A DNA stretch of 64,000 nucleotides from a virus (IMGVR_UViG_3300021400_000949:1-64000); one strand, 5' to 3'; shown: positions 3,237 through 64,000, counted from the stretch's first letter. Program-made: numbers and translations. Notes: generated by a model from the sequence alone, not told the origin.

Positions 3237-5243
3237 TTAAAATCCCAACGCTTCTATCTCGGCGTCTGTTAAAGACACAAAACGAGAAGAGTAGTAAGAC
3301 CAGTTAGTAGATGTTTTATAAGAATTATATAGGCTTGCTCTCACAAATATCGAACCGTAAACTCCTCCAGTAGAAGTTGTATAAGTGCTAATTGGAGTTG
3401 AGTTAAATGCATAGTAATTAGCTAATGTGATAATCGAAGAGCCTAACAAATATAAGGATAGCAAATTATAACATGATGCAAAGGCATATGTTGCAATGCT
3501 TGTACATGATTGTAATATTATAGTTGATAAATTGCTACAATTTGAAAAAGTGCCCTGATTTATTTGACTACACAATGGTAGATTTATACTTACTAATTGT
3601 TCACATTTCATAAAAGCTGATGCTCCTATATAAGTACACAATGGCAAATATGCCATACTTAAACTATGACAATATTGAAATGCATTTGATGAAATTGATG
3701 TACATAATGGTAGATTTATACTTGTTAATACTGAACATCCTACAAATGCATTAGACCCAATCGTTTGACATACGGGCAAGAATATTGTACTTAATGAAGT
3801 ACAATAATTAAAAGCATAATTTCCCAATGTTTGACACAATGGCAGATTTATACTTGCTAATTTTGAACATCCGTCAAATACAGAATTACCAATGGAAACA
3901 CAAGATTCTACATTAATATATGTTAAACTACTACAATTTGCAAATGTTTCACGCTCAATTATAGATACCATAGGTAAATATATGCTAGTTACATTCCTTT
4001 GATATGTAAATGCTCCAGCACCAACACTTGTACATATGGGGAAATTAAGAGTATAATAACCCCCACCCCCATAAAAAACACCACCATATGCAGAACCGAA
4101 AGCAATGTAATTAATTTTGCTTACATTTTCAAAATTAAAGTCTCCAGAAAGTTGTTGATTAGTAAATTGACCAGACACTATACTCGTCAAACTATTGCAC
4201 CAATCGGTTACATCTGATGCAGTATAACTACCATAAGAAGCACGACTACTACCACTTGCATATAACATACTTCTATAAGCTAAAGTCTTATAAATCGGAG
4301 CGAATCTCTCACCCTCTGAAATATTCGTACTAACACTCGCATATTCCGTAACATCATATGTTCCGTTTGAAGTAATTGATAATGTACCTGACACTAACTC
4401 TGAAGCAGATACGGTAACCGGAGATCCGGTGATCGTGCCTCCATAGATATATCCATATGGATTCGTGACTGATGGTGTTATTAAAACTGAATGGTTAGAT
4501 ACACTGCCCTTTGTTGCTGTAGGAGTTCCTGCTGTAACGAGATCAGATGATGGGCAATTCCATGTGATCGTTCCATCTGAGTTTACAAGCAGATCATAAT
4601 TAGCTTGACCAAATATGTATTTGATATATCGAGTTCGATATGTATCATTATTGCCTCCGGTGTAAAATCCGTATGTTTGAGACTGATCATGTTCATATGC
4701 GATAGCTCTGTGATCATCTTCTCCAGGATTATTTACCAATGCAGCGCATTCAGCATATGTCATGTTACATGTAACAGCTACTATGTCCGTCCAATCATCA
4801 TCCCATGTCACATCAAAGGCAGGGATTGGTATTGCCCCAACGTACACACTGCCCGTAGTAAACCTTCCACTAGCAACTGCTAACTGCGAAGCTGTGGTTG
4901 GCGTAATTGTTTGAGCTGCTACAGTGCTTAACTAATATGTTGACGTACCTGATGTTCTAACAATCCCTGCAGTACCCGCGCTGACATATCCAGGAGTAAC
5001 TGTAGGAGTAATATTACTTGCCCCAGAATAAAAAGCTGTAATAGTTCCTGTAGTAGCTGATAGTGTTATAGAAGGATTCGTTGTAATTGTTGTTGCAGGA
5101 GTAAAGACTTCTCCCTGTGTTTTATTAAAAGTAACTGTTATATTATCTTCACAAAAAGTTCCTATAGTGTTTAAAGTAGTAACTCCACCACTATTTATAG
5201 AAGTAATAGTAGAACCTTTATATCCAATTTCTATATCTGCCAT
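3237..5243 (-). CDS. BspA-type leucine-rich-repeat fibre/adhesin (668 aa, TAG read as Gln)
   Basis: Track ORFs 4932..5243 and 3237..4847 join in frame across TAG 4932 (GTSTYQLSTVAAQTITPTT); about 8-9 repeats of AFxxCxxLxxIxLPxCxxI. Confidence 0.85.
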
Positions 5244-5245
5244 TT

Positions 5246-61000: not shown

Positions 61001-64000
61001 TTTTCTGCGACAGTATAAGATTTTTCTAATTCTGATAACTAATTTGTTAAATATTCTCTTCGTGCAATAGCAGCAGGGTCATTATTACTTATATTAGCTA
61101 ATTTATCTAACTCTTTTTGAGTTTCAAGTATTTGCTCTTTTATTATATCTGTAGTTATTGCTTCTTCTTCGGCTAAATCTCCATTTAAAGCACGTCTTAC
61201 TTCTTCAATTGAAACGCCAATTAATTGCCACCCTTCTGCCGTCTATTGAAGATTAGAAATATCAAAACCAGCACCTAAAATTCTTTCTACATCTTCTTGA
61301 GTTAATGCACCCGAATCAGCTCGTTCAATAAGCTCATTTATACTTTTTATAGAATCTCTTAATGCGTCTCCTCTATTAAGTACATCACCTAATTTTGTAC
61401 CATAATTTTCCACGCCTACGGTTGCGGCCTTCCAATATTCTTCAATTTTTTCGGCTTCAACTCCAGCTTCACGCATCATTTTTACGATTGAAGTTAAATC
61501 ATTAATATTATTAGCTTCAAAATTAAGTAAATTTGACCCTAAATTTGGATTCTTTTGTCTAATATCATCCCAAGCTTTGTAAAATGCTTTAGCTGAACCA
61601 ATACTCATCTTAGAAGTTTTATCAATAAATGCTTTTGCATCTTTTGTGCCAACTTCATCAAGACTTAAACCAACTCTACCTAGTTCTGTCTAAACTTTTT
61701 CTACGTTATTTTTATTTTCTTCTATTAACTTATCTATTGCATCTGTATTTTCTTTATAGAATTCTTCACTAATACCAAAATCTTTATAATCATCAATTGC
61801 ATTTCCAAAAATAACTTCTCCAGAAAAAAGACCTTTGGCTTTATTTGATAACTTTCCAAATTCTTCCTAAAACTATTTTATTTTTCCCTACATTTCTTCG
61901 GGAGTTTGTATATTATCTATAGCTTCTCCAAGAATTTTAGACATAGCTGAGCTAATCTAGTTGGCTTCTTCTTTATTTTTTATAATATCCGCAGCAAACC
62001 ATGTAATTAAATTTTTTCGTTCTCTTTCTAGACTTTTTTCAGCTTCAGTAAGGTCTACAGTCTCAGCCCAATTATAATTCTAAGATTTTACCCATTCTTC
62101 GTCTATTTCACCATTTTCTTTTGTCTATATATCGGTAACAGCTTTACCTGATCCATCTATTATCTTAGTATTTTCTCTAGCATTTTTAACTCTTTTTTGT
62201 TCTCTATCTATAGCATCTTTTGCAGCAGTAAACTATTTTTCTTGTAATTTTTTTCTCTATTGTTCCTAAACTTTATTCCAACTTTCATCAGTTATTGAAA
62301 TATTGCCTGCGCCATCTACTACTATTTCTAAACCTTCATATTTCTATGTCAATTCAAGAACTGCAGTATTTAACTCTCTAACGGCTTCTGTCCACTCTCG
62401 AGTTCCTTCTGTCAATGATTTAACTTTATTTTCGAGTTCATTATAATTATTTCTATTACTTAATAAATCATCATAAGCCTACTAAGCTTCACGTGCAGCT
62501 TCAGCCGATTTTTTTGCTTTTTCTTCTGCTTTTTTTAAAGCTTTTTCTGAAGAATTGGAAAGAGCATTAAACAAAGTGACTAAAGTTGTAATTCCAATAA
62601 CAATTGCCGTAATTGTTGCCCCTACCGGATTAGCTGCCATAGAGGCGGTTATACTATCAATACCCGCTTTAATAGCAGGAAACATACTAATTATACCGCC
62701 TACACTTGTAATAATTAAACCAAGAGTAGAAATAGTATTACCAAGCTCTTCATTCTGCTAAGAAATTAAACCTCCTACAGTTGTTAAAGCTATACCGACT
62801 CCTGAAATTGCATTACCAACTTTCTAGCTACTTTCTGCCCAAGCTTGCTCTTTATCAATTACTCCCTCTACTGCAATTTTTTGCTACTCTATATATTTTA
62901 TAGCTTCTTCTCTCTATCCTTTATTTATTAAAGAAGTAGCATGAGATTTTTGACCTTTAGACAATTTATCATATGCAGCTTTATACTATTCCTCGGTAAC
63001 TTGACTATAATCTTTTCCTATATTATTACCATTAAAAAGGTTTGATATATCAGTTTTTAAGCTTTTCCAAAAACCGTTATCTTTTGAAGAAATAATTTTA
63101 TTAATTGACTTCTAAACAATATTTCCAGTACCTTCAATACCTTTACCTATTGCTTTTCCTATAGACTATCCAATTTGTAAACTATTTTTCTTTATTTTAT
63201 TTTCAGTATTTGTACCTTTAATGGTTCCAATAATTTTATCTAATAAACCAACCTTCCCATCTTTTCCGCCAAAAATTTTAGCACCACCACGTAATGCTAA
63301 AAAAGCAGAACCAAGACTTAAAATAGACTTTACTAATCCATTATTTCCAGAAACGGCACTAATAATATCATTAATTGTACTTAATATACCGGTAAGTATA
63401 TCTACACCAGTCTTAAGTATCTCATTATTTGCCAATCCCATAACAAACTAATCCCAAGCATTTTTCAACTCAGCTAACTTAGCTTGCATAGAATCAAGTG
63501 TCTTCTCAAATTGCGCCTGACCAGATCCTGCACTATCATAGGCTGCATTAACCAGTTCCATCGTTCTATCATAGTCACTCATCATAGCCAAGAAACGTGA
63601 CTGTTGTCTAGAACCGGCGGCCTAAGTAGCGATATATCTTTGTGTCGCAACATCAAGTGTATCCCATTTTTGAGCAAGCCTTAAGAGTACATCATCAAGC
63701 CCTTCAGCACCAACGAAGAACTTCGTCATATCAATACCAACGGTTCTTAAAGCTTCCTAAATTTTATTTACATTAATTGCTTCGCCTTCTTCATCAGTTC
63801 CAAGTATCTATCCTTCACTATATAACTTTTTAACCTCTGAAAAACGAGCAATAATCGTCTTCATTGCAGTACCGGCAGTTTCTGGAGCCTCTCTCGTTGT
63901 TTCAATAATCTATGAGAGGAATGCAGCGGTTGTCTCGAACTCCATATTTGCGGAGTGCGCGATTGATGCCGTCTTAGAAATTGCAATACCGATTTCATCT
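58030..64000 (-). CDS. Tape measure protein, 5'-truncated by the window edge (more than 1990 aa, many TAG)
   Basis: Six track fragments in one frame; TP901-type core (ISKTASIA..ANMEFETTAAFL..IIETTREAPETAGTAMKTIIARF); C-terminal TGGL..TGLAWLDGT..PELVLN. Confidence 0.9.

What the first reader, a model, noticed from the sequence alone, without database searches (positions are those of the whole stretch)
4932..64000. The phage reads TAG as glutamine (genetic code 15)
More than 20 genes that look shattered in the ORF track become single, full-length proteins when only TAG is read through. They end in TAA/TGA, and I found no gene in the window that needs TAG as its stop. The TAGs sit where the family has Gln: the UvrD Q-motif INDI(Q) at 18416, DEAQDSTKE(Q) at 18794, HNH AKLNEE(Q)VREI at 43250, RuvC ALD(Q)ST at 43728 and tail fibre IF(Q)IKRG. 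TAG-to-Gln recoding is established in Lak and some crAss-like gut phages; here it is seen in an apparent Clostridia-infecting siphovirus.
Basis: partly seen in the sequence, partly recalled or inferred. Interest (0 to 1): 0.9.

Follow-up and report, generated by a model that had tools for sequence, protein, structure and literature searches.

The report
Rumen phage reads TAG as glutamine
This is two thirds of a large long-tailed phage from cattle gut that writes its late genes with the stop codon TAG meaning glutamine and carries its own oddly built TAG-reading tRNA; the code change is a known phage habit, but the tRNA is of a kind that a standard tRNA finder misses.

Summary
The observation and the reading both hold. 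The window is the first 64 kb of a 79.9-kb phage fragment that CheckV rates 67% complete.

- **Coding density:** ORFs cover 68% of the fragment under table 11 and 96% with TAG read through.
- **Stop codons:** there are 258 in-frame TAGs in 37 ORFs and no in-frame TAA or TGA.
- **Amino acid:** four complete standard-code relatives align to 212 of these sites. Gln is by far the best fit. Against the closest relative alone it beats Glu by 125 log-likelihood units and wins 1000 of 1000 bootstraps. CAA+CAG+TAG equals the relatives' Gln codon share.
- **Distribution:** twenty-two replication-block genes, the capsid protein and some other virion genes have no TAG. Other virion genes, the endolysin, UvrD, RuvC and the homing nucleases carry many.
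- **Decoder:** ARAGORN and the default Rfam scan miss it. Its D and T loops are non-canonical, and homologues in three other phage contigs show compensatory changes in 15 of 20 pairs.

TAG-to-Gln phages are already published, including large siphoviruses with a predicted Clostridia host (phAss-1). This scan has noted TAG recoding in at least 115 other genomes. I class it as a new member of a known kind. The Clostridia host is only weakly supported.

The parts
41636..41710 (+). Candidate amber suppressor tRNA(CUA), 75 nt, with CCA encoded. It has a C1/C72 mismatch, G2-C71, G3-C70, G10 and G73. The D loop is AACAGCUA (no GG) and the T loop is GGCGGCA (no TTC).
   Evidence: Rfam RF00005 scores 30.4 bits against a gathering score of 29. 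ARAGORN and the default-filter cmscan miss it. Homologues in three other phage contigs give 98.8% paired cells and 15 of 20 pairs with changes on both sides. Model R1 finds only this copy in the record. It lies in a 409-bp gap that is absent from relatives G001 and G002.
20875..36762 (+). TAG-free replication core: topoisomerase II B and A subunits, AAA_24 ATPase, DnaB, RecJ-like protein and DnaE-type Pol III alpha.
   Evidence: Pfam matches. No TAG in these genes. Across all 22 TAG-free plus-strand genes there are 7827 codons and 236 Gln codons.
38268..41558 (+). TAG-free NrdD, a small ORF, an NrdG-like activase and a 216-aa protein, lying directly upstream of the tRNA.
13475..16816 (+). TAG-free genes: unknown protein, RNase H, glycosyltransferase, ATP-dependent DNA ligase and a DUF559-like protein.
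16857..19462 (+). Three TAG-bearing genes inside the early block: a 152-aa ATPase-like protein (2 TAG), a GIY-YIG nuclease (11 TAG) and a 360-aa UvrD-type helicase (8 TAG).
   Evidence: Pfam matches. UvrD codons 13 and 139 face Gln in all four standard-code relatives and, for codon 139, in PDB UvrD.
20142..20894 (+). HNH homing-endonuclease-like gene with 4 TAG.
   Evidence: PHROG matches; TAG count.
36759..37874 (+). 371-aa gene of unknown function with 5 TAG, conserved in relatives.
42869..43459 (+). HNH/NUMOD4 endonuclease with 3 TAG. The likely start is near 42869. The gene is absent from a strain in run X5.
   Evidence: Pfam. Homology starts at codon 56-69 of the 42716 frame. An X5 contig skips 42852-43468 (table 8).
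43476..44210 (+). RuvC-like resolvase with 7 TAG.
   Evidence: Pfam. Four of the 7 TAG sites face Gln in at least two standard-code relatives, and three of them do so in all four.
44693..58012 (-). Tail and host-recognition module: 184-aa, 549-aa, 1086-aa and 2216-aa proteins plus Dit. They carry 79 TAG in all, 45 of them in the 2216-aa protein.
   Evidence: Homology to standard-code relatives spans the TAGs.
58030..64000 (-). Tape measure protein gene. It runs on to base 65352 of the record and encodes 2440 aa with 62 TAG.
   Evidence: PHROG tape-measure families match. Homology spans residues 2-2440.
12187..13347 (-). Endolysin with two PG_binding_1 repeats and 7 TAG.
   Evidence: Pfam and PHROG endolysin families. 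Three of the 7 TAG sites face Gln in G002 and G003.
2143..12178 (-). Accessory block: glycosyltransferase, BspA-type LRR protein and unknowns. Nine of its 11 ORFs have 1-3 TAG, and most have no homologue in the relatives.
   Evidence: The single TAG in 2143-3219 (codon 10) may lie upstream of the true start.

Best explanation
**What it is.** The window belongs to a lytic-type siphovirus of about 115-120 kb from the bovine gut. About two thirds of the genome is present. The phage uses TAG as a glutamine codon, that is, genetic code 15.

**Shown.**
- TAG is a sense codon. It makes up about 29% of all Gln-equivalent codons.
- It sits where standard-code relatives have Gln.
- It is absent from the replication core and from the most abundant virion proteins.
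- It is dense in the remaining virion genes, the endolysin, UvrD, RuvC and the homing nucleases.
- The phage carries one tRNA-like gene with anticodon CUA at 41636-41710. This gene lies inside the TAG-free plus-strand block.

**Inferred.**
- Early genes are translated by the host's standard code.
- The tRNA(CUA) is transcribed together with them.
- A host enzyme loads it with Gln. Its mismatched 1-72 position, G2-C71, G3-C70, G10, G73 and U35 are the known E. coli GlnRS determinants.
- It then outcompetes release factor 1, so that late genes can be read.
- Read-through must be nearly complete. With 62 TAGs in the tape measure gene, it must exceed about 0.96-0.99 per codon to give 10-50% full-length protein. 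How RF1 is overcome is unknown.

**Confidence.** The figure of 0.9 is for TAG being read as Gln. That this particular tRNA is the working decoder I put at about 0.7.
For: **TAG is a sense codon.**
- ORF cover rises from 68% to 96% with TAG read through.
- In frame there are 258 TAG, 0 TAA and 0 TGA, although TAA is 2.2 times as common as TAG off frame.
- The base after TAG follows the pattern of Gln codons, not of stops.

**TAG means Gln.**
- 212 TAG sites align to four complete standard-code relatives. Gln is the top residue, in 227 of 761 cells.
- At the 49 sites where at least three relatives agree, 35 are Gln.
- Against G002 alone (201 sites), log-likelihood is -506 for Gln and -631 for Glu, and Gln wins 1000 of 1000 bootstraps.
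- CAA+CAG+TAG is 35.2 per 1000 codons. The relatives have 33.8-35.7 CAA+CAG.

**Distribution.**
- There are no TAGs among 236 Gln codons in 22 plus-strand genes. In the virion block 192 of 453 Gln-equivalent codons are TAG.
- A complete recoded relative shows the same gene-by-gene pattern.

**The tRNA.**
- Rfam scores it 30.4 bits, above the gathering score.
- Covariation across four homologues is strong.
- In the complete 139-kb TAG-recoded relative G011, the homologue is the only CUA tRNA among 9 tRNA matches.
- Other recoded relatives carry canonical tRNA(CUA) (G001, G009, G010). Standard-code relatives G002 and G003 carry none.

**Independent sample.** The same sequence, TAGs included, is present without any difference in a second sample (run X2).
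Against: - There is no peptide evidence.
- The tRNA only just passes Rfam's threshold. It lacks the T54/Psi55 and G18G19 elbow residues that nearly all elongator tRNAs keep. Its function and its amino acid are therefore inferred.
- The same odd scaffold occurs with anticodons UUG, CUC and UCC. Homology alone therefore does not fix a Gln identity.
- One third of the genome is missing, including the place where relatives keep 10-28 tRNAs. The true or main suppressor, or a release-factor gene, could lie there.
- Only 33% of TAG sites face Gln in the closest relative, against 48% for ordinary Gln codons.
- The host is unknown.
Confidence: 0.9

Rival explanations
1. TAG is a sense codon, but the decoder is not the tRNA at 41636-41710. 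On this reading that gene is a decayed or differently used tRNA-like element. The working suppressor would be a canonical tRNA(CUA) in the missing third of the genome, or would come from the host or a co-infecting phage.
For: - The record is 67% complete.
- It breaks 2-4 kb from where relatives G001 and G002 hold their tRNA arrays.
- Recoded relatives G001, G009 and G010 use canonical tRNA(CUA) genes in such arrays.
- The odd tRNA lacks the canonical elbow and scores only 30.4 bits.
Against: - All four stems are kept by compensatory changes while the loops stay fixed, which shows selection on the fold.
- In the complete recoded genome G011 the homologue is the only CUA tRNA.
- Three of the four CUA members keep G73 and an encoded CCA, and all four keep a mismatched 1-72 position.
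Confidence: 0.2
2. TAG is read as an amino acid other than glutamine: Glu, Lys, Tyr, Trp, Leu, Ser, Ala or pyrrolysine.
For: - Glu and Lys are the next most common residues opposite TAG.
- Earlier notes of this scan report phages that seem to read TAG as Ala, Leu or Ser (unchecked here).
- ARAGORN labels any CUA tRNA 'Pyl'.
Against: - Gln beats every other residue by at least 78 log-likelihood units in two separate relatives and wins all bootstraps.
- Invariant catalytic Gln positions (the UvrD Q motif and motif II) are written TAG.
- The Gln codon budget balances only if TAG is Gln.
- The tRNA has a normal 8-nt D loop, a 5-bp anticodon stem and a 4-nt variable region. By textbook knowledge this is unlike tRNA-Pyl.
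Confidence: 0.03
3. The TAGs are real stops. On this reading the record is a decaying phage, an assembly artefact, or a set of genuinely short genes.
For: Under table 11 the ORF track is fragmented.
Against: - Only TAG interrupts frames. There are 258 in-frame TAG and no in-frame TAA or TGA, although TAA is commoner off frame.
- Read-through ORFs match standard-code orthologues over their full length.
- A second sample holds the identical sequence, and other studies hold 96-97% identical strains.
- Relatives show the same pattern.
Confidence: 0.01

Closest known systems
phAss-1 / proposed Phassvirus group (Babkin et al. 2023, PMC10607447)
   Same: - Large siphoviruses with a giant tape measure protein.
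- TAG read as Gln in terminase, portal, tape measure and tail genes, and in some DNA enzymes.
- tRNA-Sup(CUA) encoded, with no phage aminoacyl-tRNA synthetase.
- Predicted Clostridia host.
- Recoded and standard-code genomes are mixed within one lineage.
- phAss-1 is the second-best GenBank phage match of our portal.
   Different: - Portal identity is only 30%, so this is a different genus or family-level group.
- This phage is from bovine gut, not human gut.
- phAss-1 has 2-3 canonical suppressor tRNAs within 28-36 tRNAs. Here the only one seen is structurally non-canonical and stands alone among replication genes.
Alternatively coded gut phage clades of Borges et al. [quoted passage not shown]
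   Same: - Structural and lysis genes are recoded while replication genes use the standard code.
- Genomes have low GC, and standard-code relatives rarely use TAG as a stop (6-8% of genes here).
- The genetic code is not constant within a clade.
[quoted passage not shown]
   Different: - I could not test whether this phage belongs to any of the named clades.
- No RF2 or synthetase gene was found, though the record is incomplete.
- This record supplies a concrete case of the predicted hidden suppressor.
crAss-like phages with code 15 shown by metaproteomics (Peters et al. 2022, PMC9523058)
   Same: The codon reassignment is the same, TAG to Gln.
   Different: Those phages infect Bacteroidota and are podovirus-like. 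All 42 portal matches here are Firmicutes phages or unclassified records, and none is named as crAss-like. No peptide evidence exists for this phage.
E. coli supE, the tRNA-Gln(CUA) amber suppressor (textbook knowledge)
   Same: It shares the CUA anticodon with U35, a weak or open 1-72 position, G2-C71, G3-C70, G10 and G73. These are the GlnRS identity set.
   Different: supE is a canonical tRNA and suppresses only partially against RF1. The phage tRNA has rebuilt D and T loops and must support near-complete read-through.

Membership tests
Code-15 (TAG to Gln) stop-codon-recoded phages | Conserved genes are interrupted only by TAG, and read-through restores full-length proteins. | tested here: met
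   There are 258 in-frame TAG and no in-frame TAA or TGA. ORF cover rises from 68% to 96%. Orthologue alignments span the TAGs.
Code-15 (TAG to Gln) stop-codon-recoded phages | Homologues written in the standard code have Gln opposite TAG. | tested here: met
   Gln is the top residue. 35 of 49 invariant columns are Gln. Gln leads Glu by 125 log-likelihood units, with 1000 of 1000 bootstraps. The Gln codon budget balances.
Code-15 (TAG to Gln) stop-codon-recoded phages | TAA and TGA remain the only terminators. | tested here: met
   All 71 called genes end in TAA (51) or TGA (20) and are tightly packed. Orthologues of relatives' TAG-ending genes end in TAA or TGA here.
Code-15 (TAG to Gln) stop-codon-recoded phages | The phage encodes a suppressor tRNA with anticodon CUA. 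| tested here: met
   The gene at 41636-41710 scores 30.4 bits in Rfam against a gathering score of 29, and covariation across four homologues supports the fold. Caveat: the loops are non-canonical, ARAGORN does not find it, and function is not shown.
Code-15 (TAG to Gln) stop-codon-recoded phages | Early and replication genes stay readable in the host's standard code. | tested here: met
   22 plus-strand genes with 7827 codons and 236 Gln codons have no TAG.
Code-15 (TAG to Gln) stop-codon-recoded phages | Peptides show Gln at TAG. | not testable with these tools
   No proteomic data are at hand.
Canonical elongator tRNA (Rfam RF00005) with Gln identity | Cloverleaf with four stems (the usual seven acceptor pairs, then 4, 5 and 5) and a 7-nt anticodon loop with U33. 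| tested here: met
   The Infernal alignment shows it. 98.8% of cells are paired in four homologues. The acceptor stem has 6 pairs plus a 1-72 mismatch.
Canonical elongator tRNA (Rfam RF00005) with Gln identity | T loop T54-Psi55-C56-R57-A58 and D loop G18G19, which together form the elbow. | tested here: not met
   The T loop reads GGCGGCA and the D loop reads AACAGCUA. It is a tRNA-like gene with a rebuilt elbow, not a canonical tRNA.
Canonical elongator tRNA (Rfam RF00005) with Gln identity | GlnRS determinants known from E. coli: open 1-72, G2-C71, G3-C70, G10, G73 and U35. | tested here: met
   All are read directly in the sequence. All four CUA members have a pyrimidine-pyrimidine 1-72 mismatch, whereas the UUG, CUC and UCC members pair 1-72. 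Whether the host has GlnRS is unknown.
Proposed genus Phassvirus (phAss-1) | Close genome similarity to phAss-1; its three members share 80-86% nucleotide identity. | tested here: not met
   Portal protein identity is only 30%. This is at most a distant relative in the same broad lineage.
Crassvirales / Lak megaphages | Homology of hallmark virion genes to those groups. | tested here: not met
   All 42 portal matches in GenBank phages are Firmicutes phages or unclassified records. Dit and the tape measure protein indicate a siphovirus.

The most novel reading that the evidence does not exclude
The decoder is a previously unrecognised class of phage tRNA with a rebuilt elbow: D loop AACAGCUA and T loop GGCRGCA, with no T54, Psi55 or G18G19.

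ARAGORN does not call it, and Rfam's default filters miss it. In at least one complete TAG-recoded genome it is the only suppressor. The same scaffold also carries sense anticodons inside phage tRNA arrays.

If it is functional, it would explain part of the roughly 60% of TAG-recoded phages in which no suppressor tRNA has been found. It would also show that a bacterial ribosome, EF-Tu and glutamine-charging enzyme accept a tRNA without the universal elbow residues.
Probability: 0.55. Interest if true: 0.65.

Novelty: new member of a known kind. Interest (0 to 1): 0.4.

Why it matters
**For annotation.** Under table 11, a third of this phage is unreadable and its largest proteins are shattered. 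Databases that force table 11 will misannotate it and its many rumen relatives.

**For evolution.** The family offers an unusually clean comparison. Complete standard-code genomes with 85% capsid identity sit next to TAG-recoded ones, and some relatives appear to be TGA-recoded. Each TAG can be read against a standard-code orthologue, and the steps of a code change can be traced.

**For mechanism.** The non-canonical tRNA(CUA) is a concrete example of the 'hidden' suppressor tRNAs that Borges et al. predicted. It is also a candidate orthogonal tRNA scaffold.

The code change itself is not new.

Tried and rejected
**tRNA and RNA searches**
- ARAGORN on the window and the whole record found no tRNA.
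- The default Rfam scan of the window found nothing. Both missed the tRNA that later turned up in a permissive scan.
- An exact 37-nt search for the tRNA in viral contigs found nothing.
- A promoter and terminator scan around the tRNA found nothing useful.

**Attempts to recover the missing third of the genome**
- A relative search with the 125-aa protein next to the contig start found nothing.
- One metagenome scan with the first bases of the contig found a 1.5-kb strain variant. It extends the record by only 361 bp and holds no tRNA.

**Release factor and host**
- No RF-1/RF-2 domain was found in G000 or in complete relatives. For G000 this is not evidence of absence, because the record is incomplete.
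- A host search with the endolysin in bacterial genomes gave one hit only. It is a 119-kb contig in an Oscillospiraceae MAG and is probably itself a phage.

**Read laying**
- All four runs are contigs and the list of variants was cut. I could not tabulate TAG/CAG/CAA polymorphism.
- The RNA-library contigs cannot show transcription.

**Origin of recoding**
- The test for shared TAG positions between G000 and G001 gave 42% against 14% (p = 0.002). It is confounded by gene class, so I draw no conclusion on single or multiple origins from it.
- The capsid tree needs at least 4 changes of code. It is a quick tree of one gene in a mosaic family.

**Other**
- A PDB sequence search with RuvC found nothing.
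Full report
**What the record is.** The window is bases 1-64000 of a single 79,879-bp virus record with 33% GC and no terminal repeat. CheckV rates it 67% complete. Complete relatives with terminal repeats are 111-139 kb long.

The gene content is that of a large siphovirus.
- Virion genes: large terminase, portal, capsid protein, tail-tube-like proteins, a 2440-aa tape measure protein, Dit, and a 2216-aa tail protein.
- An endolysin with peptidoglycan-binding repeats.
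- A replication block: DnaE-type polymerase, topoisomerase II subunits, DnaB, RecJ, NrdD/NrdG, ligase, RNase H and dUTPase.

Near-identical sequence is held by a second sample of the same study. Strains about 96-97% identical occur in bovine gut metagenomes of several other studies.

**The observation.** With ORFs of at least 60 aa chosen greedily, table 11 covers 68% of the record in 104 pieces. Reading TAG through covers 96% in 71 genes. Reading TGA through does not help.

In frame there are 258 TAG, 0 TAA and 0 TGA. Off frame, TAA is 2.2 times as common as TAG. The interruptions are therefore not decay. All 71 genes end in TAA or TGA, and they are tightly packed.

In the window, 23 solid genes carry TAG. 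Read-through proteins align from end to end with orthologues in standard-code relatives. The base that follows an in-frame TAG looks like the base that follows CAA or CAG, not like the base that follows a real stop.

**Which amino acid.** A capsid-protein search in IMG/VR gave 80 related loci. Most of them, including the three closest at 84-85% capsid identity, are fully open under table 11. A few are TAG-recoded. I fetched four complete standard-code relatives (G002, G003, G006, G007) and aligned our proteins to them with X at each TAG.

- 212 of the 258 TAG sites are covered.
- Gln is opposite in 227 of 761 cells, followed by Glu (81) and Lys (67).
- Of the 49 sites where at least three relatives agree on one residue, 35 are Gln.
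- With G002 alone, each site counts once (201 sites). Total log-likelihood is -506 for Gln and -631 for Glu, and Gln wins 1000 of 1000 bootstraps. G006 gives the same answer.
- Gln is 33% of residues opposite TAG, against a background of 3.3%.
- CAA+CAG+TAG is 35.2 per 1000 codons here. The standard-code relatives have 33.8-35.7 CAA+CAG.

UvrD codon 13 (18416), UvrD codon 139 (18794) and RuvC codon 85 (43728) are Gln in all four relatives. Codon 139 also faces the motif II Gln of Deinococcus UvrD. The HNH example (43250) is not backed by homologues. The tail-protein example has no homologue.

**Where TAG is used.** Twenty-two plus-strand genes have no TAG. They comprise 7827 codons and 236 Gln codons and include the whole replication core. 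In the minus-strand virion block, 192 of 453 Gln-equivalent codons are TAG.

Inside the early block, TAG occurs only in these genes:
- a small ATPase-like gene,
- the GIY-YIG nuclease,
- UvrD,
- two HNH nucleases,
- an unknown 371-aa gene,
- RuvC.

The capsid protein, the gene next to it (71305-71850 of the record) and one tail-tube-like gene have no TAG. They write Gln only as CAG, although the genome prefers CAA overall. The complete recoded relative G001 shows nearly the same gene-by-gene pattern. This is the published picture of early genes in standard code and late and lysis genes recoded (10.1101/2021.08.26.457843).

**The decoder.** ARAGORN and the default Rfam scan found no tRNA in the record. 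Synteny shows that the contig ends 2-4 kb short of the place where relatives keep arrays of 10-28 tRNAs. In these arrays the recoded relatives G001, G009 and G010 have a canonical tRNA(CUA). The standard-code relatives G002 and G003 do not.

An earlier, unchecked note of this scan pointed to 41636-41710. I tested it.
- Rfam's tRNA model matches there at 30.4 bits against a gathering score of 29. It is the best RNA hit in the window when permissive filters are used.
- The anticodon loop reads CUCUAAA, so the anticodon is CUA.
- With base 41636 as position 1, the acceptor stem has six Watson-Crick pairs, a C1/C72 mismatch, G73 and an encoded CCA.
- The D loop is AACAGCUA and the T loop is GGCGGCA. 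The universal G18G19 and T54-Psi55 residues are missing, which explains why the finders fail.

A pattern search found the same loops with a CUA anticodon in three other phage contigs. One of them is the complete 139-kb genome G011. Across the four sequences all four stems change by compensation while the loops stay fixed. 98.8% of cells are paired, and 15 of 20 pairs change on both sides. Structures slid by one to three columns pair only 31-55% of cells.

G011 is itself TAG-recoded. This RNA is its only CUA tRNA.

The same scaffold occurs with anticodons UUG, CUC and UCC inside tRNA arrays of other phage contigs. It is therefore a tRNA scaffold in its own right rather than a Gln-specific one. 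Only the CUA members have a mismatched 1-72 position. Together with G2-C71, G3-C70, G10, G73 and U35, this is the E. coli GlnRS identity set (textbook knowledge).

Among about 150 canonical tRNAs searched with a model of the scaffold, the best matches are the canonical tRNA(CUA) of G001 and two tRNA-Gln(UUG) genes.

In our phage the tRNA sits in a 409-bp gap between a 216-aa gene and the dUTPase gene. These two genes are adjacent in G001 and G002. The tRNA is co-oriented with the TAG-free genes.

**How it most likely works.** Shown: TAG is a Gln-equivalent sense codon restricted to a subset of genes, and a structurally conserved tRNA(CUA) is encoded among the TAG-free genes.

Inferred:
- The host uses the standard code.
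- The tRNA is made together with the early and middle genes.
- A host enzyme charges it with Gln.
- It then allows late proteins to be made.

The 62 TAGs in the tape measure gene demand about 0.96-0.99 read-through per codon for 10-50% full-length product. Release factor 1 must therefore be strongly outcompeted or disabled. No release factor gene was found, but one third of the genome is missing.

**Comparison with what is known.** TAG-to-Gln recoding in phages is well described.
- Borges et al. report it in several clades, with predicted Firmicutes and Bacteroidetes hosts. [quoted passage not shown]
- Peters et al. confirmed code 15 by metaproteomics in crAss-like phages.
- Babkin et al. describe phAss-1, a 136-kb siphovirus with a predicted Clostridia host. 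It has TAG-to-Gln recoding, suppressor tRNAs and a mix of recoded and standard-code relatives.

phAss-1 is the second-best GenBank match of our portal, at 30% identity. The other matches are large siphoviruses of Enterococcus, Bacillus, Lactococcus, Brevibacillus and Clostridioides.

This scan has also noted TAG recoding in at least 115 other genomes. The finding is therefore a new member of a known kind. Two things add value: the non-canonical suppressor tRNA, and the close standard-code relatives.

**Host.** A Firmicutes host is likely from the portal relatives and the lysin type. The only pointer to Clostridia is a related 119-kb contig binned in an Oscillospiraceae MAG. This is weak evidence.

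Noticed in passing
L234:12302-12376(+), L235:3477-3551(-), L236:6399-6473(-): The same non-canonical tRNA scaffold (D loop AACAGCUA, T loop GGCRGCA) occurs with anticodons UUG, CUC and UCC. These copies lie inside tRNA arrays of other IMG/VR phage contigs, and ARAGORN calls none of them.
   Followed up: partly
L112:12177-12251(-) (G001, complete TAG-recoded relative): ARAGORN calls a tRNA with anticodon UUA, an ochre-suppressor type, in a genome whose genes still end in TAA. It lies apart from the main tRNA array.
   Followed up: no
L227:15241-15328(-) (G010): This canonical tRNA(CUA) is 88 nt long and has a long extra arm whose loop contains CUG, a Gln anticodon. It resembles the 'two-headed' suppressor tRNAs noted elsewhere in this scan (e1-5495868).
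   Followed up: no
L178, L188-L190, L193, L194, L199, L209, L211 (NrdD relatives): ORF cover in these related phage loci rises by about 0.1-0.2 when TGA is read through, but not when TAG is. The wider family may therefore also contain TGA-recoded members.
   Followed up: no
record 70230-71279, 71305-71850, 66246-66995 (= L001 10230-11279, 11305-11850, 6246-6995); window 25620-26543: The capsid protein, the gene next to it, a tail-tube-like gene and a 307-aa early gene write Gln only as CAG (11, 5, 5 and 12 times, with no CAA and no TAG). The genome as a whole prefers CAA 2.4 to 1. This looks like codon selection in highly expressed genes.
   Followed up: partly
window 42852-43468: A contig of run X5 joins across this stretch. 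A related strain therefore lacks the HNH/NUMOD4 gene, as expected for a mobile homing endonuclease. The X5 contigs laid here also do not match 41555-41704, the stretch that holds the tRNA.
   Followed up: partly
record 73229-74716 (= L001 13229-14716, minus strand); window 46970-50230 (minus strand): The portal gene ends TAG-TAA and the 1086-aa tail gene ends TAG-NNN-TAA. These may be ancestral TAG stops that are now read through to a back-up stop.
   Followed up: no
window 1-1418 versus L145: A 1.5-kb metagenome contig is 94-98% identical to the start of the record, but it carries a different segment in place of window 128-636. It extends 361 bp beyond the contig start.
   Followed up: partly
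window 17401-18408: All 11 TAGs of the GIY-YIG nuclease gene lie in its first 156 codons. There are none in the nuclease domain (residues 240-322).
   Followed up: no
G001 41171-44517 (L116): In relative G001 the DnaE gene aligns only from residue 440 of our protein, and a GIY-YIG-like stretch lies just upstream. This suggests a split or invaded polymerase gene.
   Followed up: no
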